The notes beneath the pieces were generated by a model, which saw only the letters and a list, made by a program, of their open reading frames with translations, was not told where the DNA came from and did not search any database. From Patescibacteria group bacterium (GTDB lineage: Bacteria > Patescibacteriota > Microgenomatia > UBA1400 > PJMF01), in assembly GCA_016861205.1 (NCBI GenBank), contig BOKX01000001.1, positions 988,758 through 1,052,757 on the forward strand: DNA of 64,000 bases, written 5' to 3'. The number at the start of each line of letters is the position of its first letter. The stretch's first letter is position 1. The translations under genes were made by a program, and so were the position numbers. Shown in pieces: positions 11,965 through 21,375 of this stretch.

Positions 11965-12858
11965 ATGTCTGATACTCGTCGTGTTCGCAAAGCCATTATC
12001 ACTGACGCCGGTTTTGCGAGTCGTTATCTGCCTATCACCAAAACCATCCCCAAGGCTATGTTGCCACTCGGCAATCGGCCGATCATGCAGTTTGTAGTTG
12101 AAGAGTGTGTGGAAGCTGGCATCGAAGAGATTATTGTAGTGGCCACACCCGAAGGTAAGCCAATTTACGAAGACTACTTCAACAACAACGTCAACCGGAT
12201 TCGCAAGCAGCTGTCTGCTCAAGGCAAAGAGGACCGCTACGAGCCAGTTCAACATGTCTTAGATTTCCCGAAGATCGTGGTGATTGAGCAAGATCCCAGT
12301 TTGCCGTACGGCAATGGTTCACCCGTGGCTTCAGCCCAAAAGTTTGTGGAGGGTGAAGAAGCTTTTCTGGTTTTGTATAGTGACGACGTAGTGTTTGGTA
12401 CCCCAGGAGACGCCAAAGTTTTGGTTGATCTTTACGAGCAAAACCCCAATGTCGAGGGTATTATTATGGCTCAAGAAGTTAGCCCCGAGGTGGTAGATAA
12501 GTACGGCATTATTTCCTTTAAAGCTGGTTCTGATCGCGAGCTCGATAACATTATTGAAAAGCCTGATAAAGGCACCGAGCCTTCACGATTGGCTTCTTAC
12601 GGTCGTTATTTAGTTAAGCCATCGATTTTCGAGCACCTGAACCCCACCAACTTGGGTAAAGATGCTGAACTCTGGACTGTTGATGCCATCACCAAGATCG
12701 CTGCGACCAAAACTGTTTTGGTGGAGAAGACTCAAGCCATGTGGATGACCACCGGCGACCCAGAAAACTACTTCAAGGCTCACATGATGTTTGCCTTGCA
12801 GCATGAGAAGTACGGCAGCAAAATTGGGGATTGGCTCAGTGAGCTCAGCTCTAGTTAA
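11965..12858 (+). CDS. galU: UTP--glucose-1-phosphate uridylyltransferase
   Basis: N-terminal KAIITDAGFASRYLPITKTIPKAMLPLGNRPIMQ is the GalU nucleotide-binding signature. Length is about 297 aa. SD GAGGAG sits 6 nt upstream. Confidence 0.9.
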   Translation: MSDTRRVRKAIITDAGFASRYLPITKTIPKAMLPLGNRPIMQFVVEECVEAGIEEIIVVATPEGKPIYEDYFNNNVNRIRKQLSAQGKEDRYEPVQHVLDFPKIVVIEQDPSLPYGNGSPVASAQKFVEGEEAFLVLYSDDVVFGTPGDAKVLVDLYEQNPNVEGIIMAQEVSPEVVDKYGIISFKAGSDRELDNIIEKPDKGTEPSRLASYGRYLVKPSIFEHLNPTNLGKDAELWTVDAITKIAATKTVLVEKTQAMWMTTGDPENYFKAHMMFALQHEKYGSKIGDWLSELSSS

Positions 12859-13129
12859 GCGCTCAGTTTCATGCTATAGTTGAGGGTAACATGCCAGTCA
12901 GCATTTGCTAGTGAGGGGTTAGAATTTCCTCGATAATGCTTGACGAAGGGCTGATGGGTTGTCTGGGTACCCCGTGGGGTATTCGGCGCTCTGCCCACCT
13001 GGTTTCCAGGGGGATCAAGTCACCCCTCACTGCCAAGTGCTGACCTTGATCAGGGTCGAGGCTCTTATTGTGAGCCATAGTTTTCCGTTGAGAAAATTCG
13101 CCGAGTAAGGTACACTACACAGGTTCTGT

Positions 13130-13201
13130 GCCCAGATAGTTCAGTGGCAGAACGCCTTCTTGGTAAGAAGGAGGTCGAGGGTCCGATTCCCTCTCTGGGC
13201 T
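13130..13201 (+). tRNA. tRNA-Thr (anticodon GGT)
   Basis: Cloverleaf by hand folding: acceptor GCCCAGA/TCTGGGC, D arm GTTC-AGTGGCA-GAAC, anticodon stem CCTTC/GAAGG with loop TTGGTAA, T arm GAGGG-TCCGATT-CCCTC. No encoded CCA. Confidence 0.8.
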
Positions 13202-13222
13202 CTGAATAGAAAGATACCTTGC

Positions 13223-13558
13223 ATGTCTGAAACAGCAGCCGGTGAAGGCCGAAATCTCAAAACATACACGTTGCTTGGTTTCGCTCCACAAACGCCCGAG
13301 AGTGAAGTGCTGCCGGAAGATGTGGATCAGTTTGTAACTGCAGTTTTGGCACTACCAACCATTCAAACTTGTGAAAAGGTGCTTGGGGAGATCCGAGATT
13401 TTTCAGTCTACACAGCTGTGGTTTTGGTAGTAACTGCAGAGGGCGACGCCCAACAAGTTGGCAATGATATCTTAGAGATGAAGAGAAAAGGTATCCCAAA
13501 CAGTGAAGTAACGTCAAAAACCTTCATTGTTTCGGATTTACCGATTACAATTGAATAA
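13223..13558 (+). CDS. Hypothetical small protein (111 aa) between two tRNA genes
   Basis: ORF beginning MSETAAGEG…. The longer track ORF (13160) would overlap tRNA-Thr, so the internal ATG is preferred. No recognised family. Confidence 0.35.
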   Translation: MSETAAGEGRNLKTYTLLGFAPQTPESEVLPEDVDQFVTAVLALPTIQTCEKVLGEIRDFSVYTAVVLVVTAEGDAQQVGNDILEMKRKGIPNSEVTSKTFIVSDLPITIE

Positions 13559-13571
13559 ACATTAACGACAA

Positions 13572-13657
13572 GCCTGGTTACCCAAGTGGTCAACGGGGGC
13601 AGACTGTAAATCTGCTGACATACGTCTTCGGAGGTTCGAATCCTTCACCAGGCACCC
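13572..13657 (+). tRNA. tRNA-Tyr (anticodon GTA), long variable arm
   Basis: Acceptor GCCTGGT/ACCAGGC, anticodon stem GCAGA/TCTGC with loop CTGTAAA, a 14-nt variable arm (stem gac/gtc), and T arm GGAGG-TTCGAAT-CCTTC. Confidence 0.8.
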
Positions 13658-13820
13658 CTTCACAAACTGTTTTTTCGCACTTCGCACTGACGTGAGGCGT
13701 TCGAAAAGACAGTTTGTTCAGGTTTAGTCGCTTCGCACGAGAGGTGCTCAAACACAAAAGTTTTTGTGCCTTTTACTTTCTTTTTCCCAACCAAGCAATT
13801 AAGTCGTTTGAATCAATGCT

Positions 13821-14333
13821 TTAAAACGGCTCGATTCTGAAGCCGAGATCTTTGCCCAGATAGTCTTGCCAGACCACATAGCTGAGCTCGATAGTGCGAT
13901 GGCCGAAAGCGCGGCCCTCAATGGCGTGGTTTTCGTCGTAGATCACCATTTCTTTGCCACCATCCAGAAACTCCAAGTTGTACTTGCGCTCGCGGAAGCC
14001 AAAGTGGTGCTTCAACTCCAAGTATGAACTGCTCAGCCAGCGACACTCGAGGATGATGTCGCCACGGTGGTAAGTGGTTTCAGCAAACTGAAACTCTTGA
14101 TTAACGTTTTTATTGGCAATTTCGCCAACATACTTCTCGAAGTAGTACTCTTTGGAGTGATACATGTAGTGGGTGATTTTGTAGCTGGTGAAGCGGGGAG
14201 AGATCAGGGGATAGCCCGCGAACTCACTCCCGAACTTTGCCCAAAGCAACGCCATGCCAGCTTCTAGAAAATGATCCATGGGCGAATTATACTGCGGTCC
14301 GGTATAATACCGAAGTGGAGTTCGCTTTGGCAA
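13821..14333 (-). CDS. Hypothetical protein (170 aa)
   Basis: ORF with ordinary composition; no motif recognised. Confidence 0.4.
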   Translation of the reverse strand: MPKRTPLRYYTGPQYNSPMDHFLEAGMALLWAKFGSEFAGYPLISPRFTSYKITHYMYHSKEYYFEKYVGEIANKNVNQEFQFAETTYHRGDIILECRWLSSSYLELKHHFGFRERKYNLEFLDGGKEMVIYDENHAIEGRAFGHRTIELSYVVWQDYLGKDLGFRIEPF

Positions 14334-14343
14334 CTTCGCAGCT

Positions 14344-14396
14344 GCCTCCTTAGCTCAGTGGTTAGAGCATCCCGCTGTAAGCGGGAGGGTCCAGAG
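14344..14396 (+). pseudogene. Truncated tRNA-like sequence. It duplicates the 5' half of the downstream tRNA-Thr(TGT) but has a different anticodon arm and no T-arm 3' strand or acceptor 3' strand.
   Basis: Positions 1-26 (GCCTCCTTAGCTCAGTGGTTAGAGCA) are identical to the tRNA at 14418. The anticodon arm is TCCCG-CTGTAAG-CGGGA (would read GTA). The sequence continues GGGTCCAGAG and then diverges to gtaaacttaacaag. Confidence 0.45.
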
Positions 14397-14417
14397 GTAA
14401 ACTTAACAAGTAAATAT

Positions 14418-14490
14418 GCCTCCTTAGCTCAGTGGTTAGAGCACCTGTTTTGTAAACAGGGGGTCCAGAGTTCGAATCTCTGAGGGGGCT
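14418..14490 (+). tRNA. tRNA-Thr (anticodon TGT)
   Basis: Acceptor GCCTCCT/AGGGGGC (one G-U), D arm GCTC-AGTGGTTA-GAGC, anticodon stem CCTGT/ACAGG with loop TTTGTAA, T arm CAGAG-TTCGAAT-CTCTG. 73 nt. Confidence 0.8.
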
Positions 14491-14597
14491 CAAAAATGCT
14501 CTAAACAGTATATCGGCGTTCAAAGAGTTCCTCTCTAGCAAAACGAGCATTTTTTGTGTATACTACCAGTTCTGTAACGCGAAAAACGTAAAGATAT

Positions 14598-14801
14598 ATG
14601 GCAAAAAAGAAAAAAGGCCCCCGACAAGCAACTGGTTTGAAGTGCAAAGTGTGTAGCAACTTTAACTACATTACTGAGTACAACAAAATGAACGAACAGC
14701 TCAAGAAGCAAACGACCGGCGAGAGTACTTTCCCTCTGATGAAGTACTGCAAACGCTGCCGCAAGAGCACTGAGCACGTCATGTCCAAGAAGTTGAAGTA
14801 A
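14598..14801 (+). CDS. rpmG: 50S ribosomal protein L33
   Basis: 67 aa, Lys-rich, with two CxxC pairs (CKVCSNFNY…CKRCRKSTEH) forming the L33 zinc ribbon. Possible extended -10 (tgtgtatact) about 30 nt upstream. Confidence 0.7.
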   Translation: MAKKKKGPRQATGLKCKVCSNFNYITEYNKMNEQLKKQTTGESTFPLMKYCKRCRKSTEHVMSKKLK

Positions 14802-14845
14802 TAAGACTTCAATTTGGATTTTCCGACGCGCGCGTTTTTGTTTTC

Positions 14846-16171
14846 CTAAGATTTCGACTCTGTCTGTGCCACGTTGGCGATGTTTTTGGCACCTTCCAAG
14901 AAAAGGGGCTCAAGAGTTTGGGCGGTTTGCATGGCTTGCTCAATCCAGGACTGTGCCTGATGATGGGCACTCATTAAGGTTTTCAACTGTTCCCAGATGT
15001 GTTCAGCTTGTGCCTGACGCGCGATGCCTTTTTGTTCAAAAATCGACCGGATATTGTGTTCCCACTCACCCCACTCGTTGAGGGTCAACAAGAAACAGCC
15101 AGCCGCAGCTGCGTCGTAGGCCATGTCGCCTGATGGTTTCGAGATAAAGCCATCAGCCCAAGGGAAGCCGTACTTTATCAGTAGCTCATTGGCATCCACA
15201 ATCTGAGGATGGTAAATCAGGCGGAGTTTCTGGCGGGAGTCGGTCAGAGCACCAATCTTGACGCGGTGTTCCTTAGCTACCTCACGAACAAGATCGCAGA
15301 AATCACTGTTGGTGCCACCATAGACCAGGATTCGCAGCCGACTGTCTGGTTTACGTAACTCTGGCAGGAGTTGCTCCAAAATCGTTTTGATCTCAGTCTT
15401 GTTGGTGCCCAAGCCGCCCGTGGTCAAACACAGCTTCAGCAAGCCACTGCGCCAAGGGTGTTTGCGGCTGCGGACCGCTAAGATGCGTGGGTCAACTGGG
15501 GGACCGGTCACGATGATGCGTTCGGGATCAGGGTGCAGACCACGAATCATGGCCTTTTCCAAAAACTCAATCTTGGTTCGCTCGTCGAACACGCAAAACT
15601 TGATGTTAGGACGATCGGCGTTGTCCAAGTAGTCATCGCGAACGTGCGGATCAGTAATGACCTGAATGACGGACTTGCCTTGTTCGGCCAAGATATTTCC
15701 AGCTGCGATGTGCAGGGACAAAATGGGATGCTTGACGTTTTGGGTCAGGTGCAGCAGCGGCGGGGTGATGCTAGTCAGGATCGGCAGTTTGGAGCGACCA
15801 AACTTGTCGACTAAGTCTTTGACAAACTTGAGAAGTGGATGGCGGGCCAAAGTTCGGCCAACTTGTTGCGTGAACTCCACTTTGCGCCACTCTTTTTGGC
15901 TGACGTAGTTGGTGGGGTCAACGATCCATGCCTTGGTGGGGCGAATTTTATCACCCCAAACAGAGACGGCGATGGCGACCGCCATCGAGTAGTGAGCGCG
16001 TGACAGTACGATATCGGGCTGAGTATTGTTGGCGGGCATGCCATACCAATCTTTCAAGTCTTCTCGGTAACTAGCAGACACCGTGACCATGGGCAACTGG
16101 GTTTGCTCTAGAACTGATTTATCCTTGGCTAAGGCGAGAGTGAGGTGGGGATCAAGCAGGGAAGCGGGCAT
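14846..16171 (-). CDS. Glycosyltransferase family 28-like (MGDG synthase/UgtP-type diacylglycerol glycosyltransferase family)
   Basis: 441 aa. The C-terminal half (…ILVYGGTNSDF…SKPSGDMAYDAAAAGCFLLTLNEWGEWE…) resembles the GT-B C-terminal donor-binding domain of MGDG synthase/MurG-like enzymes. Confidence 0.5.
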   Translation of the reverse strand: MPASLLDPHLTLALAKDKSVLEQTQLPMVTVSASYREDLKDWYGMPANNTQPDIVLSRAHYSMAVAIAVSVWGDKIRPTKAWIVDPTNYVSQKEWRKVEFTQQVGRTLARHPLLKFVKDLVDKFGRSKLPILTSITPPLLHLTQNVKHPILSLHIAAGNILAEQGKSVIQVITDPHVRDDYLDNADRPNIKFCVFDERTKIEFLEKAMIRGLHPDPERIIVTGPPVDPRILAVRSRKHPWRSGLLKLCLTTGGLGTNKTEIKTILEQLLPELRKPDSRLRILVYGGTNSDFCDLVREVAKEHRVKIGALTDSRQKLRLIYHPQIVDANELLIKYGFPWADGFISKPSGDMAYDAAAAGCFLLTLNEWGEWEHNIRSIFEQKGIARQAQAEHIWEQLKTLMSAHHQAQSWIEQAMQTAQTLEPLFLEGAKNIANVAQTESKS

Positions 16172-16289
16172 AGGTACTTGTCAGTGTAACGGTTGGAGCG
16201 GTTGCTGAAAAGTAGTTGCAGGGAGAGCAGCATCTACGTTAGAATCGCCAACATTCAGTACTTACGCCTGCCCGCCCGAGGAGGTCCGT

Positions 16290-16733
16290 GTGCCTGTTTT
16301 CAGAGAAATGAGCCAAGCTCAAGCTGTAATCGAAAAACACTTGGGGATTCCAGCCAACGCTGTGACGCCCGACTACGCTATGTACTTGCTTGAGCAGTAT
16401 TGCGTTGATAACGTCCTGCTACCTGGTGAGGAGTTGGCCATAACTGAAGAGATGCCACAACGGGTGGTTAACGACCCAGTTATCCGGGATGCTATTTTTG
16501 AGGCATTGTCATTCTTAGCGACAGCTTCCGGTACCCATCCTCGTGAAGCTGCCCCTAAAATCAGTGATCGTCGCCGTGGCCGCGCGCTGAGTGAACTTCG
16601 CAACAATGTGCCAGGCCGCCGGTACAAGTTCCGTCCGGGCAGAATGATTGAGGCACAAGATGGGTTTGGCCCCGTGTCTGACAAGTACGCTCAACTGCAC
16701 CGTGGGCAGCTTGATGTGGACGCCAGCGTTTAG
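16290..16733 (+). CDS. Hypothetical protein (147 aa)
   Basis: ORF preceded by a plausible sigma70 promoter (TTGCAG-18 nt-TAGAAT at about 16216-16235). No motif recognised. Confidence 0.4.
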   Translation: MPVFREMSQAQAVIEKHLGIPANAVTPDYAMYLLEQYCVDNVLLPGEELAITEEMPQRVVNDPVIRDAIFEALSFLATASGTHPREAAPKISDRRRGRALSELRNNVPGRRYKFRPGRMIEAQDGFGPVSDKYAQLHRGQLDVDASV

Positions 16734-16756
16734 CCATAGACTCTAATTGTCTAACG

Positions 16757-16776
16757 CTCTCGAGTCACCTATAATG
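16757..16776 (+). promoter_or_regulatory. Putative sigma70-type promoter for the HNH endonuclease gene
   Basis: TTGTCT, 17-nt spacer, TATAAT (16757-16782 region), about 75 nt upstream of the GTG start. Local sequence is AT-rich. Confidence 0.4.
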
Positions 16777-16853
16777 CTGGCCAGCAGCTATCTTGGTAGA
16801 ACGTTGGTCTCCAAATGTTTTATATATTGGAGTCGTAATGATAAAATAAAGGG

Positions 16854-17300
16854 GTGCTCTGTGGGAGATGCAAACTAAACAAAGATATCAATAATTTCTC
16901 GCTAAAGAACAGAGAAAAAGGTCGGTATCATAGTGTTTGCAAGGCATGTCATTCTGAGTATAGAAGGCAGCATTATCTGAGTCACAAAGCGAAGTATCTG
17001 ACGAAGGCGATGCATTGGAATAAACGACAAAAAGAAGTATTAATCCAATATCTCTTTCAAAAGTTGTCGAATTCAAAATGCGTAGATTGTGGTGAAAAAG
17101 ATATTTTGGTTTTGGATTTTGACCACATCAAGGAAAAAGAGTTTAACATCGCTGTGCTATTTAAAAAAAGATGTGCCATAAAAACTCTTGAGAAAGAGTT
17201 GAACAAGTGTGAAGTCCGATGTGCCAACTGTCATCGAAGAAAAACGGCTAAAGAAATTGGTTCTTGGAAGTACAAGATGATAAATGAAATAGGGGCGTAG
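16854..17300 (+). CDS. HNH endonuclease (GTG start). Its last 10 nt overlap the 5' end of tRNA-Trp.
   Basis: CGRCKLNKD…CKAC and C-terminal …DFDHIKEKEFNIAV…NKCEVRCANCHRRK. The D-H-(N)-H catalytic motif is flanked by CxxC pairs. Low-GC, Lys-rich composition. Confidence 0.75.
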   Translation: MLCGRCKLNKDINNFSLKNREKGRYHSVCKACHSEYRRQHYLSHKAKYLTKAMHWNKRQKEVLIQYLFQKLSNSKCVDCGEKDILVLDFDHIKEKEFNIAVLFKKRCAIKTLEKELNKCEVRCANCHRRKTAKEIGSWKYKMINEIGA

Positions 17301-17363
17301 GTTAACGGTAGACCTGATCTCTCCAAAAGATCTAGTGAGGGTTCGACTCCTTCCGCCCCTGCA
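17291..17363 (+). tRNA. tRNA-Trp (anticodon CCA)
   Basis: Acceptor AGGGGCG/CGCCCCT, D arm GGTT-AACGGTA-GACC, anticodon stem GATCT/AGATC with loop CTCCAAA, T arm GAGGG-TTCGACT-CCTTC, discriminator G. Confidence 0.8.
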
Positions 17364-17443
17364 GCATTCTTGATGTCAAAAGCGCCAAGAATGTTCCTCA
17401 AACACGGTTCAACCTCTTTGCCTCCTTTACACTTCCCACAATT

Positions 17444-18736
17444 TTGATTACTTTGGTACTTAGTATGAACGAAGGTCTTTCCCGTCGTGATCTGCTGAAG
17501 CTGGGAGCTGCCGCGGCTGGGGCTTATCTGGCCAGTCGATTTCTAAAAGAAAAGCCCGAGCCTGATTTGGAACAGGTAGATTTTGAGGGTCACGTTTTCT
17601 TGATAGACAAAGAGGGTATTCCTCACTCTTGTCGCACCAAAGAAGGAACTGAAATAACCTTTAACATAGGTGATCTCCGACGGGCTCAGACAGAAGCCAA
17701 AAATCTGAAAGCTGATCGAGTGGGGGAAACATTTGCGGCCCGCCAAGAAAAAGAAGTTCCCGCCGTTGGTGGTGTAGAGCGACCACTGACTACCGAGTTG
17801 CCTGATGATATTGTTCCCGCTGAAAAACTTCAGCAACAGTATGGGATTAAGATTGTGCAGAGTGACATCACCCAGCTGCACATCCGTGAGAGTGCTTTTG
17901 CGCAAGGTGGTTTGCTAGAAGAGTTTGCTCGGGGAGGCAGAGATCTGACTATAGCCCTGATTCAGGCCCCATTTCTTATTCGTAGATACTTTGCCAACGA
18001 GAAGTATCGTGACTTGCCAACTACCAACATTGAAGGTGGGGTGGTGGGTGATTTTGGCAAAGATTTACCCTCTGATCAATTTCCAACGCCAGCTCAGTAC
18101 GAGGAGCTGCGGCAACAAAAAATCTTGGCGTTAAAGAAAATTATTTTGCAAACACAAGACAAATCACAACTTCTTGAGTTACTGGCTGATATTCATGCCT
18201 ATGCGAGTGGCATTGTAACTGATGAAGATTTGCTCTACGAAAGTACGAACGGTAGGATGCTGGCAGCAGGATTGTATGATCAACAGTGGAGTGAAGAAGG
18301 CAGTAAAGATTATATCTTTTTGGCGGTTGATGATCGTTTGCCGCGAGACTTAATGGCGGTGTGTTTTGACAAAGATGGCAAGTTTTTTCCCAAAAAATAC
18401 ACGATGTTGGCGCTACAGAATGCCCGCGTTCGTCCGCCGCAACCATGGCAGTCGCACCCAGATGGTGCTCACGCGTATACATATGCGGCGGCTTCAGATC
18501 AGGAAGGAACCATTGGTTTTAACTTGCGTCATGAGCTGGGGCATGATCGGCTGCGGTTGGATAATTTGAGAGATAGCGAGCAGGGGATAAATGATCAAAC
18601 CAAGCAAAGATTGCAGGCAGACTGGCGTCAGTGGCAAGAGAGTGGTTTTGGACGAACTGACCAAAAAGGCGACGAAGTATATCCTTTTGTTTTTTCAATT
18701 CCACCAGCGTTGGGTGGGGGGTACATTTTAACTTAA
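17444..18736 (+). CDS. Putative secreted zinc metallopeptidase-like protein with a twin-arginine (Tat) signal
   Basis: N-terminal SRRDLLKLGAAAAGAYLAS matches the Tat S/T-R-R-x-F-L-K pattern. An HExxH motif sits in FNLRHELGHDRL. 430 aa. Confidence 0.5.
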   Translation: MITLVLSMNEGLSRRDLLKLGAAAAGAYLASRFLKEKPEPDLEQVDFEGHVFLIDKEGIPHSCRTKEGTEITFNIGDLRRAQTEAKNLKADRVGETFAARQEKEVPAVGGVERPLTTELPDDIVPAEKLQQQYGIKIVQSDITQLHIRESAFAQGGLLEEFARGGRDLTIALIQAPFLIRRYFANEKYRDLPTTNIEGGVVGDFGKDLPSDQFPTPAQYEELRQQKILALKKIILQTQDKSQLLELLADIHAYASGIVTDEDLLYESTNGRMLAAGLYDQQWSEEGSKDYIFLAVDDRLPRDLMAVCFDKDGKFFPKKYTMLALQNARVRPPQPWQSHPDGAHAYTYAAASDQEGTIGFNLRHELGHDRLRLDNLRDSEQGINDQTKQRLQADWRQWQESGFGRTDQKGDEVYPFVFSIPPALGGGYILT

Positions 18737-18803
18737 AGTATAAAAGAGGTTCTCATACTCGCCACCAGTCCCACTTTTCGAGATTGTTTGCTATCATGCA
18801 AAC

Positions 18804-19142
18804 ATGCTGATCACCCAAAGTCTGCCGTTTTCTTCAGATCAAATCAAGCAGCTGGCTGAGCAGTTTGAAGTGTATATCAAAACTGTGATCGATATCGATA
18901 AAAAAGTGTGCTCGGCCGGAATGGACCGACATTTTGAGGGTGAGCAAGTTTTGTTGCAACAAGGTTCCGAACAGAGAAATCTTTGGGGTGGGGGAATTGA
19001 CCTTGAAACGAAGGAAATTGACTTCAACTCATTTATAAATATTCGCCCTCGAGACAACAACACAAAAAATGAAATTCAGAGTGAAGAAATCAAGAAAAAG
19101 TATAAAGAACTAACAGAGTATTTTTTTAAGGAAATACTATGA
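18804..19142 (+). CDS. Hypothetical small protein (112 aa), AT-rich and Lys/Glu-rich
   Basis: ORF only. Overlaps the next ORF by ATGA. Confidence 0.35.
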   Translation: MLITQSLPFSSDQIKQLAEQFEVYIKTVIDIDKKVCSAGMDRHFEGEQVLLQQGSEQRNLWGGGIDLETKEIDFNSFINIRPRDNNTKNEIQSEEIKKKYKELTEYFFKEIL

Positions 19143-19417
19143 CGGACATCGTAATGCTGGCCGGTTCTCTCTCGAATGATTTGTTTCGAGTGGCTTCACT
19201 AGCTCAGCGAGGTGCAAATCAAGCGGCTAGTCGCTTTTTAATTGAGGCACAACGTTGGTCAAATGATTTAGCCAAAGTTGCCCCCCAACCGTACATCAAA
19301 AAAATTGCCCAGGATATTTCTTCAAGAACTCCAGAGGAAATATCAGAGGATGCCGCGGAAAAATATCTGATGTATGGTGTGTTGCTTCAAAATTTTTGTT
19401 TACACAACCAAAAGTAA
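19139..19417 (+). CDS. Hypothetical small protein (92 aa)
   Basis: ORF translationally coupled to the previous one by a 4-nt overlap. No motif recognised. Confidence 0.3.
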   Translation: MTDIVMLAGSLSNDLFRVASLAQRGANQAASRFLIEAQRWSNDLAKVAPQPYIKKIAQDISSRTPEEISEDAAEKYLMYGVLLQNFCLHNQK

Positions 19418-19478
19418 AGTAGATCCCGTTAGTTTGCATGACAAAACAGTTTTATTGCGACAAAAAGAATGTGAGCAT

Positions 19479-19811
19479 ATGACGATCACCCATCTTTCCC
19501 AACTGCCTACCCAGCCAGTGTCCCACGATCCACATCTCTCCAAGCAAGTCATGATCGCGAATGGAGTTGTGCCGCATGTGACCAACTTTTCGCAAGCGGT
19601 CATTCCACCGAACGAAACAGTGACCACTCATCACCATCGGGACATGTGGGAAGTGTTTTTGGTGAGTGAAGGGGAGGGTAGCATCACCATTAATGGCACC
19701 GAACACACACTAACCAAAGGTACCTGTGTGGTGGTGGAACCGGGAGAAGAGCATAGCCTGGTGAACACCGGCAAGAGTGATTTAATCCTGACGTACTTTG
19801 GGGTGGTGTAG
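19479..19811 (+). CDS. Cupin-domain protein
   Basis: The two cupin motifs HHHRDMWEVFLVSEGEG…ING and …PGEEHSLVNTG are present. Start taken at the internal ATG (MTITHL…). Confidence 0.65.
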   Translation: MTITHLSQLPTQPVSHDPHLSKQVMIANGVVPHVTNFSQAVIPPNETVTTHHHRDMWEVFLVSEGEGSITINGTEHTLTKGTCVVVEPGEEHSLVNTGKSDLILTYFGVV

Positions 19812-19827
19812 CTGAACAGCAACCTGA

Positions 19828-20376
19828 CTAGTCAATCTTGCCACCACTGGCCCAGAGGTTGGTCTGGTCGGTCACGAGGTTTTTAGAACCTGAGCCGCCG
19901 TGATTCGCATAAAACTCAATGTAGTCACTCGATCCGTTGCAGTCGACCACGGCTGTGACAGAGGCGATTACACCATTCGTGCTAGCGCCTTCAGCGATCA
20001 TGACACTGTGGAGCTCGGAACCATTTTTGTAAATGGAGGCGATCACCGCGTTGCCACTGCCCACGCCACCACTGGCAAATCGAACAGCGCAGTTCACCAC
20101 ATATTTTCCAGCAACCGTGGGGGTGAAGCGGTAGTTACTGGTGTCAAAATTGCTGTTGGTATCAAATACTTCGGTGTTAAATTGAATTTTGGTTGGCGTT
20201 GAGGCGCTAATTGATTGGCCAGCGGTGCTGTACACAGAGAAGCTGGGTTTGGCGCCGGGTGATCCCCAAGCGGGGAGGCCGCTACTTACAACTAACTGGT
20301 CGCCATTGGATCCGATTGGCAACTTTGCCAGGTTTCCACTCGAGTCTCGGTAGTAGAGGTTTCCGGTATCTGTCAT
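19828..20376 (-). CDS. C1q/TNF-like (tail-fibre-like) jelly-roll domain protein
   Basis: C-terminal about 120 aa show the C1q pattern F-x-a-P-x-a-G-x-Y-x-h-x-h (YRFTPTVAGKYVVNCAVRF…IYKNGSEL…YIEFY), with a Gly/Ser-rich N-terminal half. Confidence 0.45.
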   Translation of the reverse strand: MTDTGNLYYRDSSGNLAKLPIGSNGDQLVVSSGLPAWGSPGAKPSFSVYSTAGQSISASTPTKIQFNTEVFDTNSNFDTSNYRFTPTVAGKYVVNCAVRFASGGVGSGNAVIASIYKNGSELHSVMIAEGASTNGVIASVTAVVDCNGSSDYIEFYANHGGSGSKNLVTDQTNLWASGGKID

Positions 20377-21304: not shown

Positions 21305-21375
21305 TGGGGAGCTAACTAGTTCGATTCCATCCGCCTAATTGCATTTCTGGAGTAGGTGAGCTACAGTGGCGGCAT

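What the first reader, a model, noticed from the sequence alone, without database searches (positions are those of the whole stretch)
14344..14490. Tandem tRNA locus: 5' half of a tRNA (identical acceptor and D arm, different anticodon arm) duplicated upstream of an intact tRNA-Thr(TGT)
Positions 14344-14396 reproduce the first 26 nt of the downstream tRNA exactly. They then carry a different, well-paired anticodon stem-loop (TCCCG-CTGTAAG-CGGGA) and the start of the T stem. The sequence then breaks off into AT-rich sequence 21 nt before the complete tRNA.

A truncated tRNA next to its intact copy is the kind of scar left by site-specific recombination at a tRNA gene. It could also be the remnant of a second isoacceptor gene that was partly deleted. 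Two different anticodon arms on an identical body are unusual.
Basis: seen in the sequence. Interest (0 to 1): 0.5.

Follow-up and report, generated by a model that had tools for sequence, protein, structure and literature searches.

The report
Dead tRNA stub from nuclease cassette
The half-tRNA in front of tRNA-Thr is real but non-functional, and it most likely marks where a small selfish nuclease gene once sat in front of the tRNA, an arrangement that recurs near tRNA genes in this group of tiny bacteria.

Summary
Window 14343-14369 equals 14417-14443 (27 nt) and 14387-14396 equals 14461-14470. A different 17-nt hairpin lies between them, and 21 nt separate the fragment from an intact tRNA-Thr(TGT).

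The fragment is not a tRNA: ARAGORN makes no call and the Rfam score is below threshold. It is not a second isoacceptor either. It is present in two lineages of one Microgenomates (Patescibacteria) species, absent in a third lineage, and absent in all sister species.

The "different anticodon arm" belongs to a family of GC palindromes (TCCCG...CGGGA). These recur exactly where loops or arms of tRNA remnants lie in other Microgenomates genomes.

The spacer reads K-L-N-K-stop, 4 nt before the tRNA. It recurs next to tRNA stubs in two distant genomes with the stop kept.

Intact versions of the layout exist elsewhere. They read promoter, hairpin-bearing 5' tRNA stub, small GIY-YIG nuclease ORF, intact tRNA, in 6 of 6 protein clusters examined. 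The window itself has a tRNA-Trp stub, an HNH endonuclease ORF and an intact tRNA-Trp at 16792-17362.

Best reading (about 0.55): a decayed nuclease-tRNA cassette whose ORF was deleted. No integrase and no 3' partner fragment were found.

The parts
14303..14308 (+). TATAAT -10-like box, the likely promoter of the stub/tRNA-Thr transcript
   Evidence: Read. A homologous GGTCsGGTATAAT lies directly upstream of the tRNA in strain L006. TATAAT lies upstream of tRNA-Thr in relatives. Promoter function is inferred; the simple scan did not list it because no -35 box is present.
14344..14369 (+). Stub part 1: tRNA-Thr(TGT) positions 1-26 (acceptor 5' strand and D arm), 100% identical to the intact gene
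14370..14386 (+). GC-rich palindrome TCCCGC-TGTAA-GCGGGA occupying exactly positions 27-43 (the anticodon arm)
   Evidence: The same TCCCG..CGGGA family is found in tRNA remnants of L033, L053, L054, L110, L118 and L146. It occurs once in the window.
14387..14398 (+). Stub part 2: positions 44-53 identical to the intact gene, then GT (positions 54-55 with T54G). The copy breaks at T55|C56 in the T-loop box.
   Evidence: L033 and L076 break at the same position.
14399..14417 (+). Spacer AAA CTT AAC AAG TAA ATAT, read as the probable vestigial 3' end (K L N K stop, then 4 nt) of a lost small nuclease ORF
   Evidence: The same 19-mer with TAA changed to TGA occurs in L046/L138. L033 has ACA ATT GAA AAG TAA ATAT. 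Intact GIY-YIG ORFs end 4-9 nt before the tRNA with ...EFNK*...ATIK*...TLKN*. This reading is an inference.
14418..14491 (+). Intact tRNA-Thr(TGT)
   Evidence: ARAGORN; Rfam tRNA 70.3 bits
16792..16815 (+). Analogue in the same window: 5' remnant of an older tRNA-Trp allele (D-arm 3' side plus anticodon stem/loop, broken after CTCCAAA), sitting behind promoter TATAAT 16770-16775
   Evidence: In strain L001/L009 the same promoter is followed by a plain, different tRNA-Trp.
16854..17300 (+). HNH endonuclease ORF (148 aa) whose stop codon overlaps the 5' end of tRNA-Trp
   Evidence: PHROG phrog_2255, E = 5e-30. The CxxC...DH...N...CxxCH motif is visible in the translation. The ORF is absent from strain L001/L009.
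17291..17362 (+). Intact tRNA-Trp(CCA), an allele very different from that of strain L001/L009

Best explanation
The fragment is the dead 5' stub of a tRNA-Thr(TGT) copy. It belongs to a decayed nuclease-tRNA cassette.

In these bacteria (Microgenomates/Patescibacteria), small homing-type nuclease genes (GIY-YIG or HNH) sit wedged between a tRNA promoter and the tRNA. On their upstream side they leave a duplicated 5' piece of the tRNA that carries GC-rich palindromes in one of its loops. On their downstream side lies an intact tRNA, 4-9 nt after the stop codon.

Proposed steps, all inferred:
1. The nuclease cuts a cassette-free tRNA allele in or near a loop-coding box.
2. The break is repaired from a cassette-bearing copy, or by microhomology. 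This produces promoter, stub, ORF, tRNA, and homogenises the flanks.
3. The ORF later decays.

At 14344-14417 the ORF has been deleted. What remains is the stub (positions 1-26, palindrome, positions 44-55) and the last four codons plus the stop.

Shown: the anatomy, the strain polymorphism, the intact cassettes elsewhere, and the HNH analogue in the same window.

Inferred: that a nuclease ORF once lay here, that cleavage and repair created the stub, and that the stub now has no function beyond being co-transcribed in the tRNA leader.
For: (1) The fragment is not a tRNA.

(2) It is lineage-specific and polymorphic.
- It is identical in the window/L002 lineage and in the roughly 94-97% identical L009 lineage.
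- It is absent in strain L006, where the same promoter abuts CAGAGTTCTGATAT-tRNA, which keeps a T-arm piece.
- It is absent in L017/L096, L170, L177-L180, L018 and L098.

(3) The same window holds an undecayed analogue: Trp stub 16792-16815, HNH ORF 16854-17300 (PHROG E = 5e-30) and intact tRNA-Trp. Strain L001/L009 has neither stub nor HNH and carries a different Trp allele.

(4) Intact cassettes exist elsewhere. All six GIY-YIG protein clusters whose DNA could be read show promoter, 5' tRNA stub with GC hairpins, ORF, intact tRNA. These are L071 Tyr (Pfam GIY-YIG E = 6e-12), L182, L183/4, L185-7, L188-90 and L191-3, all Ser.

(5) The spacer reads K L N K stop with the stop 4 nt before the tRNA.
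- L046 has the same 19-mer with TAA changed to TGA, so the stop is kept.
- L033 has T I E K stop.
- Compared with the L182 ORF end (GAA TTT AAT AAA TAA), the differences are mostly synonymous or conservative.
- AAGTRAATAT next to a tRNA 5' end occurs only in the hairpin-stub modules: the window (counted separately) and 2 of 347 distinct tRNA upstream contexts in the loci, L033 and L046.

(6) TCCCG..CGGGA palindromes give 14 non-redundant hits in 703 kb of loci. Seven distinct cases lie inside tRNA remnants, often replacing positions 27-43 exactly.

(7) The stub breaks at T55|C56 of GTTCGAAT. The phage GIY-YIG nuclease SegB cuts inside tRNA genes at RAWTSGAAC, which is the reverse complement of that box. 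SegB also drives tandem amplification of tRNA plus a 3'-truncated segB (PMC13096335; PMC2330249, listed).

(8) There are zero mismatches between the window and L009 over 14200-14600, inside flanks that differ by 2.5-10%. This is what co-conversion would give.
Against: - No strain seen carries an ORF at this exact site.
- The ORF vestige is only five codons, so the coding reading rests on a short pattern.
- No GIY-YIG gene is present in the 64-kb window.
- The single TCCCGC hairpin in the anticodon-arm position differs from the twin D-loop hairpins of the Ser cassettes.
- The stub is identical to the adjacent gene, which a plain tandem duplication would also give.
- The short (80-94 aa) GIY-YIG proteins have a catalytic domain only, and none has been shown to be a homing enzyme.
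- The window and L046 share the same ORF-less end points. This fits spread of an already ORF-less unit better than independent decay, and the mechanism for such spread is unknown.
- The perfect conservation of 14200-14600 could instead reflect function.
Confidence: 0.55

Rival explanations
1. Integrase att scar. An integrative element recombined with tRNA-Thr, displaced the 5' part, and was later lost.
For: - Partial tRNA copies next to intact tRNAs are the classic signature of integration.
- Clear 3'-end direct repeats flank short inserts elsewhere in the clade: L041/42 Tyr 67-84, L099 and L057 Trp 55-72.
- The locus is strain-variable.
- Published precedents exist: PMC10865867 (integration disrupts the tRNA and the phage supplies a copy) and PMC3293823 (an archaeal 5' tRNA-Thr fragment upstream of the tRNA with a recombinase insert).
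Against: - None of the 59 window ORFs scanned is an integrase or transposase. PHROG and NCBIfam gave nothing recombinase-like for the neighbours.
- Only 21 nt lie between the copies.
- No displaced 3' fragment exists.
- A tyrosine-recombinase crossover cannot replace both strands of the anticodon stem while keeping positions 1-26 and 44-53.
Confidence: 0.1
2. Plain tandem duplication of 74 bp by slippage or unequal crossing-over, followed by drift. The hairpin and spacer would be chance products.
For: - The unit length (fragment plus spacer = 74 nt) equals the tRNA length.
- The stub is identical to the neighbouring gene.
- Tandem arrays of stubs exist in L053 and L146.
Against: - Drift cannot change about 12 of 17 positions in the arm and all 21 positions at the 3' end while leaving 37 flanking positions untouched.
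- The hairpin family and the 19-mer recur in unrelated genomes next to other tRNAs.
Confidence: 0.1
3. A functional leader element. The stub and hairpin would be a selected part of the pre-tRNA/rpmG transcript, acting as a processing signal, a folding modulator or a decoy.
For: - It lies between the -10 box and the tRNA, so it should be co-transcribed.
- It is 100% conserved between lineages whose flanks differ by 2.5-10%.
- The predicted minimum-energy fold pairs the stub's 5' strand with the 3' acceptor strand of the real tRNA, z = -3.2.
- GC hairpins in related cassettes covary.
Against: - It is dispensable: strain L006 and all sister species lack it.
- It has no T arm or 3' acceptor strand, so it is not a substrate for RNase P or RNase Z.
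- Related stubs break at different positions (D loop, anticodon loop, T loop), so they share no common RNA fold.
Confidence: 0.15
4. Remnant of a second isoacceptor or other tRNA gene that was partly deleted.
For: The well-paired 5+7+5 arm looks like an anticodon arm.
Against: - The anticodon would be GTA (Tyr) on a class-I Thr body.
- C32-G38 can pair, giving a 5-nt loop or smaller.
- Homologous hairpins elsewhere have 3-5-nt loops.
- In about 150 related loci the cluster is Thr(GGT)-Tyr-Thr(TGT), with no extra gene here.
Confidence: 0.03

Closest known systems
SegB, the free-standing GIY-YIG homing endonuclease of T-even phage tRNA clusters (PMC2330249; PMC13096335)
   Same: - A small nuclease gene is embedded among or next to tRNA genes.
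- It cuts inside tRNA genes at the T-loop box (RAWTSGAAC).
- It drives gene conversion and tandem units of tRNA plus a 3'-truncated nuclease gene through microhomology between the tRNA 5' end and the gene's 3' end.
   Different: - Here the host is a cellular Patescibacteria chromosome, not a phage.
- The GIY-YIG proteins are 80-94 aa with a catalytic domain only.
- The cassette includes a hairpin-bearing 5' tRNA stub and sits between the tRNA promoter and the tRNA.
- At the Thr site no ORF survives.
- No cleavage data exist.
tRNA-dependent lysogeny (Guerrero-Bustamante and Hatfull 2024, PMC10865867)
   Same: A mobile element destroys the resident tRNA gene and brings a working copy of the same isotype. 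This matches L171/L071, the Trp locus of the window, and possibly the Thr site.
   Different: That system uses a tyrosine integrase and a whole prophage. Here no integrase is present and the element is at most a few hundred bases.
tRNA fragments at integration sites of genomic islands or prophages; the 5' tRNA-Thr fragment of Caldiarchaeum (PMC3293823)
   Same: A partial tRNA copy lies near an intact one at a strain-variable locus.
   Different: - The usual case is a 3' fragment at the far end of kilobases of foreign DNA that includes an integrase.
- Here a 5' stub lies 21 nt from the gene.
- The anticodon arm is swapped for a palindrome.
Group I introns (some with HNH genes) in Patescibacteria tRNA genes (Nakagawa et al. 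2026, PMC13011429)
   Same: - Same phylum.
- Anticodon-loop hot spot at 35/36 or 36/37.
- HNH genes associated with tRNAs.
- Annotation tools are confused by them.
   Different: - There is no intron here: Rfam finds no group I match in 12500-18000 at E <= 10.
- The downstream tRNAs are complete and uninterrupted.
- The nuclease ORFs are free-standing, upstream of the tRNA.
Mobile GC-rich palindromes of AT-rich genomes (yeast mitochondrial GC clusters, Rickettsia palindromic elements, REP). Recalled from my own knowledge, not tested here.
   Same: Short GC-rich perfect hairpins recur at many sites, including inside RNA-gene-like sequence.
   Different: - Here they lie almost only in loops or arms of tRNA remnants.
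- They are linked to nuclease cassettes.
- No transposition mechanism or target duplication has been established. One possible TCCA duplication was seen in L084.

Membership tests
Functional tRNA gene | Complete cloverleaf (acceptor stem, D, anticodon and T arms) recognised by tRNA finders | tested here: not met
   ARAGORN makes no call, with or without the intron option. The Rfam tRNA score is 27.2, below the gathering score of 29, with the T arm missing.
Functional tRNA gene | Canonical 7-nt anticodon loop with an anticodon suited to the body | tested here: not met
   The loop CTGTAAG would read GTA on a Thr body. RNAfold closes it to a 3-nt loop. Homologous hairpins elsewhere have 3-5-nt loops.
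Integrase-generated att scar at a tRNA gene | Direct repeat of a tRNA segment | tested here: met
   27-nt and 10-nt exact repeats
Integrase-generated att scar at a tRNA gene | Integrase or recombinase gene, or foreign DNA, between or beside the repeats | tested here: not met
   Only 21 nt lie between the copies. None of the 59 ORFs scanned with Pfam is an integrase or transposase. PHROG and NCBIfam gave nothing recombinase-like for the neighbours.
Integrase-generated att scar at a tRNA gene | Displaced partner fragment (the other half of the tRNA) elsewhere | tested here: not met
   No match to tRNA positions 54-74 anywhere in the 64 kb. The candidate at 21320-21336 is rejected.
Free-standing homing-endonuclease cassette at a tRNA gene (SegB-like) | Nuclease ORF adjacent to the target gene | tested here: not met
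   No ORF lies at 14344-14417, only a five-codon vestige (inference). The feature is met at the Trp locus of the same window (HNH 16854-17300) and in 6 of 6 GIY-YIG clusters elsewhere.
Free-standing homing-endonuclease cassette at a tRNA gene (SegB-like) | Presence/absence polymorphism between close relatives, with flanks homogenised around the site | tested here: met
   The stub is present in the window/L002 and L009 lineages and absent in L006. There are 0 mismatches over 14200-14600 against 2.5-10% in the flanks. The HNH ORF is present in the window and absent in L001/L009.
Free-standing homing-endonuclease cassette at a tRNA gene (SegB-like) | Site-specific cleavage of the cassette-free allele | not testable with these tools
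   This needs purified protein and DNA substrates.
Group I intron-containing tRNA | Group I ribozyme fold between two tRNA halves | tested here: not met
   Rfam finds no intron family at E <= 10 in 12500-18000. The interval between the copies is 21 nt.
Conserved dicistronic or processed precursor | The same arrangement in all relatives | tested here: not met
   The stub is absent in L006 and in every sister species examined.

The most novel reading that the evidence does not exclude
Patescibacteria may carry a widespread family of promoter-hijacking nuclease-tRNA cassettes that I did not find described in the searched literature.

The proposed family has these features:
- A small GIY-YIG or HNH ORF is wedged between a tRNA promoter and an intact tRNA.
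- It is always preceded by a duplicated 5' tRNA stub that carries covarying GC hairpins.
- The cassettes turn over tRNA alleles between strains.
- They have non-autonomous, ORF-less derivatives that still spread. The window's Thr stub and the L046 Tyr stub share the same 19-mer and would be examples.

Under this reading the window fragment is one such derivative, and the GC palindromes are a functional part of the element (an RNA 5'-UTR structure or a DNA recognition site).
Probability: 0.4. Interest if true: 0.75.

Novelty: new variant of a known kind. Interest (0 to 1): 0.58.

Why it matters
On its own the fragment is a pseudogene. Its value is as a pointer.

- tRNA genes of these reduced genomes appear to be repeatedly invaded and replaced by tiny nuclease cassettes. 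Two strains about 94-97% identical carry unrelated tRNA-Trp alleles at the same promoter.
- If this holds, tRNA genes would be among the most mobile loci in Patescibacteria.
- It would explain stubs and odd tRNA-like calls that confuse annotation.
- It would extend the SegB paradigm from phages to cellular chromosomes.
- It would define a covarying hairpin motif that is absent from Rfam.
- It also bears on how streamlined genomes tolerate selfish DNA: the ORF rides on a strong tRNA promoter and costs only about 300 bp.

Tried and rejected
- The first genome-contig scan, with the 152-aa upstream protein, found no relatives. One search failed on a frame error.
- ARAGORN with the intron option called nothing new.
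- Viral contigs: the 19-mer gave one probably chance hit in a giant-virus MAG, and the hairpin-in-tRNA pattern gave none. There is no phage link.
- The spacer was tested as a general tRNA leader or promoter and rejected. AAGTRAATAT abuts a tRNA in only 2 of 347 upstream contexts in the loci, both of them stub modules. In the window TAAATAT touches the tRNA 5' end, too close for a promoter.
- The hairpin was tested as a dispersed repeat of this genome and rejected. It occurs once in 64 kb. Other GC hairpins in the window look like terminators.
- A group I or BHB intron reading was rejected. [quoted passage not shown]
- The hairpin as a tRNA-Gly acceptor junction was rejected because the loop-proximal bases vary.
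- The ~220-aa proteins that end at tRNA-Trp in six loci could not be assigned a nuclease fold. Pfam, PHROG and PDB sequence searches found only an N-terminal HTH.
- A look-up of the 441-aa neighbour gave no new strain variants.
- P0117 had no DNA available.
- A GIY-YIG profile search of the window's six-frame ORFs found nothing.

Full report
**1. What is there**

The window is a chromosomal segment of a Patescibacteria (CPR) bacterium of the Microgenomates group. The evidence is housekeeping genes and L33 homologues named Woesebacteria or Pacebacteria.

The local gene order is as follows:

| Feature | Coordinates |
|---|---|
| tRNA-Thr(GGT) | 13130 |
| 111-aa ORF | 13226-13558 |
| tRNA-Tyr | 13572 |
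| 152-aa ORF, minus strand | 13821-14279 |
| the finding | 14344-14417 |
| tRNA-Thr(TGT) | 14418-14491 |
| rpmG | 14598-14801 |
| 441-aa ORF, minus strand | 14846-16171 |
| 147-aa ORF | 16290-16733 |
| 148-aa ORF | 16854-17300 |
| tRNA-Trp | 17291 |

- 14343-14369 equals 14417-14443 (27 nt).
- 14387-14396 equals 14461-14470.
- The 17 nt between them differ.
- The copy ends 21 nt before the intact tRNA.

ARAGORN and Rfam do not accept the fragment as a tRNA. The substituted arm TCCCGC-TGTAA-GCGGGA is a very stable hairpin, with z = -3.35.

**2. Distribution**

Exact-protein look-ups recovered the locus from several public assemblies.
- The fragment plus tRNA is identical in L002, L004, L005 and L009.
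- The window is 100% identical to L002 over 14401-20279.
- L009 and L001 represent a lineage about 94-97% identical to the window.

A third lineage, L006, lacks the fragment. A 547-aa gene lies upstream, and a near-identical promoter (GGTCGGGTATAAT) is followed by CAGAGTTCTGATAT and the tRNA. CAGAGTTC is a T-arm piece.

No stub is present in sister species, whose L33 is 96-85% identical: L017/L096, L170, L177-L180, L018 and L098. In about 150 L33-anchored loci the ancestral layout is Thr(GGT)-Tyr-Thr(TGT)-rpmG...Trp, with no extra gene.

The stub is therefore young, polymorphic and dispensable.

Between the window and L009 there are no mismatches over 14200-14600, although the flanks differ by 2.5-10%.

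**3. No integrase, no partner**

None of the 59 ORFs of at least 140 aa scanned with Pfam is an integrase or transposase. No match to the tRNA's 3' third exists in the window. The suggested partner at 21320-21336 neither matches nor has a T stem.

**4. The arm and the spacer are recurrent modules**

I compared each annotated tRNA with its own locus by BLAST. This showed that tRNA pieces next to intact tRNAs are common in the clade.

GC palindromes with the base TCCCG...CGGGA sit exactly where loops or arms of these pieces should be. Examples:
- L053: pseudo-Thr GAGCG-TCCCGCTAAGCGGGA-AGGTCC, and a Tyr stub with TCCCGATCATATCGGGA.
- L033: TCCCGCCAAGGCGGGA.
- L146: TCCCGATCTGCAATCGGGA, in two tandem copies.
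- L118: CCCCGCTAAGCGGGG, and TCCCGCCCATTGCGGGA in the T loop.
- L110: in the T loop.
- L054: a Trp remnant.

There are 14 non-redundant TCCCG..CGGGA hairpins in 703 kb of loci. Seven distinct cases lie inside tRNA remnants. The window has a single copy.

The spacer is shared as well.
- L046/L138 carry Tyr 1-31, a decayed hairpin, TAAATCTGC, then AAACTTAACAAGTGAATAT.
- L033 carries a decayed Thr(GGT) 5' half, a hairpin, AGGTCTCGGGTT, then ACAATTGAAAAGTAAATAT, then the intact tRNA.

Among 347 distinct tRNA upstream contexts in the loci, AAGTRAATAT occurs only in those two modules. The window, counted separately, is the third case.

The window, L033 and L076 all break at T55|C56.

**5. The clue inside the window**

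ORF 16854-17300 is an HNH endonuclease (PHROG E = 5e-30; the motif is visible). Its stop codon overlaps the tRNA-Trp 5' end.

Immediately upstream lies a promoter (TATAAT 16770-16775). It is shared with strain L001/L009. After it comes CTTGGTAGAACGTTGGTCTCCAAA. This is a 5' remnant of a tRNA-Trp allele resembling that of sister species L177, broken in the anticodon loop.

In L001/L009 the same promoter drives a plain and very different tRNA-Trp, with no HNH gene.

So one locus in this genome shows stub, nuclease ORF and replacement tRNA in undecayed form.

**6. Intact cassettes elsewhere**

In L071 a Tyr stub with GC hairpins in its D loop is followed by a GIY-YIG ORF (Pfam E = 6e-12). That ORF runs into the intact tRNA-Tyr.

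Homologues form a family of more than 7,600 proteins of 80-94 aa, named Patescibacteria where names exist.

Every cluster whose DNA I could read has the same layout. These are P0116/L182, P0115/L183-4, P0140/L185-7, P0157/L188-90 and P0214/L191-3, plus P0112/L071. The layout is:
1. a promoter;
2. the first 12-35 nt of the tRNA;
3. GC hairpins inserted in a loop of that stub;
4. the GIY-YIG ORF;
5. 4-9 nt (in L071 the ORF instead runs into the tRNA);
6. the intact tRNA.

A twin hairpin (NCNGCC-CGA-GGCNGN, then TCNGCC-TTG-GGCNGA) is 100% paired in five examples. It shows four pairs with compensatory double changes. The caveat is that the rows were hand-picked and one was spliced. Rfam 15 has no family for it.

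**7. Reading the spacer**

The intact ORFs end as follows:

| Locus | ORF end and junction |
|---|---|
| L182 | GAA TTT AAT AAA TAA TATTTT \| tRNA |
| L183 | ACA ATT AAA TAA ATTATATAA \| tRNA |
| L185 | ...GAA TGA TCAT \| tRNA |
| L188 | ...GAG TAG TTAC \| tRNA |
| L191 | ...AAA AAT TAA ATAAAAT \| tRNA |

The window spacer is AAA CTT AAC AAG TAA ATAT | tRNA. L046 has TGA in place of TAA, so a stop is kept. L033 has ACA ATT GAA AAG TAA ATAT.

Family C-termini typically read ...KYLL(x)3-6K.

I therefore read 14399-14417 as the vestigial 3' end of such an ORF. This is an inference from a short pattern.

The window and L046 share the same end points beside different tRNAs. This suggests that the ORF-less form may itself have spread.

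**8. Mechanism**

The closest experimental model is phage SegB, a free-standing GIY-YIG nuclease in tRNA clusters.
- It cuts inside tRNA genes, with the motif RAWTSGAAC. This is the reverse complement of the T-loop box GTTCSAWTY.
- It promotes co-conversion of the tRNA region.
- It promotes tandem units of tRNA plus a 3'-truncated segB (PMC2330249, listed).

By analogy, a nuclease-made break in tRNA-Thr would be repaired from a cassette-bearing copy or through microhomology. This would give stub, ORF, tRNA. The ORF was later deleted, as expected from the gain-decay-loss cycle of homing genes (established knowledge).

The stub remains in the tRNA leader. Its predicted pairing with the true 3' acceptor strand is a computed possibility only.

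**9. What remains open**

- The role of the GC palindromes is unknown.
- No GIY-YIG gene is present in the window.
- The agent that made the Thr stub has not been identified.

The rivals (integrase scar, plain duplication, functional leader, lost isoacceptor) are weighed in their own sections. None explains the recurrence of both modules together with the intact cassettes.

**10. Verdict**

The feature is an ordinary pseudogene in function. It is nevertheless a member of a recurrent nuclease-tRNA cassette architecture that I did not find described in the literature library searched.

Noticed in passing
window 16770-17362: After promoter TATAAT comes a 24-nt remnant of an older tRNA-Trp allele, then a 148-aa HNH endonuclease ORF whose stop overlaps an intact tRNA-Trp. 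A strain about 94-97% identical has the same promoter followed by a quite different tRNA-Trp, with no HNH gene.
   Followed up: yes
L182, L183/L184, L185-L187, L188-L190, L191-L193, L071: Small GIY-YIG genes (80-94 aa, from a family of more than 7,600 proteins) sit 4-9 nt upstream of, or run into, intact tRNA-Ser or tRNA-Tyr genes. Each is preceded by a duplicated 5' tRNA stub that carries twin GC hairpins with compensatory base changes. Rfam has no family for the hairpins.
   Followed up: partly
L171 740-960 (minus strand) and L071 2200-2420: A complete tRNA-Thr(TGT) sits on a 14-bp stalk inside the anticodon loop (TTTTG|TAAACC) of another tRNA-Thr(TGT). The outer copy is undecayed in L171 (fold z = -5.2) and decayed in L071. 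The stalk keeps pairing through the change CCCGC/GCGGG to CCTGC/GCAGG.
   Followed up: partly
L021, L024, L074, L118, L135, L167 (ORFs ending at the tRNA-Trp 5' end): A family of ~220-aa proteins with an N-terminal HTH and an unassigned C-terminal domain (motif LLFWGEGSK...NSDP) ends exactly at, or overlaps, the 5' end of tRNA-Trp. I suspect a homing endonuclease, but Pfam, PHROG and PDB sequence searches did not show it.
   Followed up: partly
window 13226-13558: A 111-aa ORF with no family match is inserted between tRNA-Thr(GGT) and tRNA-Tyr, which are adjacent in relatives. It ends ACA ATT GAA TAA 13 nt before tRNA-Tyr, resembling the L033 vestige. It is the most divergent stretch between strains, with about 100 mismatches in 400 nt.
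   Followed up: no
L006 (reverse complement 668-2365), compared with window 14293: Strain L006 carries a 547-aa gene between the 152-aa gene and the tRNA-Thr promoter. The only hit is a sub-threshold MobP1 relaxase match (E = 0.002). The indel has no flanking repeats.
   Followed up: no
L001 2470-4629 and L009 10890-12894, compared with window 17363-17423: Downstream of tRNA-Trp the other strain has a ~2.2-kb insert with a Gp49/HTH toxin-antitoxin pair and a GNAT acetyltransferase. The window lacks this insert.
   Followed up: no
L041/L042 2329-2346; L099 5056-5073; L057 4519-4534: Classic 16-19-nt direct repeats of tRNA 3' ends (Tyr 67-84, Trp 55-72) flank inserts of only 115-240 nt. These are att-like scars with no element left.
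   Followed up: no
L053 460-720 and L146 1380-1530: Tandem arrays of hairpin-substituted tRNA pieces: at least 3 units of 92 nt before tRNA-Tyr, and 2 units of 75 nt after tRNA-Thr.
   Followed up: partly
L076 630-1850: Two inverted 37-nt copies (CTGACTTTAGATCCCGAATCAAATTCGGGATGACGAC), each containing a TCCCG..CGGGA hairpin, flank a 1.1-kb segment with a 256-aa gene.
   Followed up: no
L003/L007/L008/L010/L014 contig ends, and the start of L001: Logan contigs from SRR27676189-91 stop at ...GAGCATCC inside the stub and restart at ATAT plus the tRNA. This indicates a branch in the assembly graph, from either tandem stub copies or a mixture with the L006-type allele.
   Followed up: partly
window 14359-14370 and 14496-14507: A 12-nt inverted repeat (11 of 12 complementary) links the stub's D-arm 3' side plus the first hairpin base to the tRNA trailer. 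Four such pairs occur in 4.6 kb, so it may be chance.
   Followed up: no
record titles of L017, L019, L023 and others: Many of these Patescibacteria MAG records are titled 'uncultured Pseudomonadales', 'Vitreimonas', 'Limisphaerales' or 'Methylococcaceae'. The organism names in those records appear unreliable.
   Followed up: no
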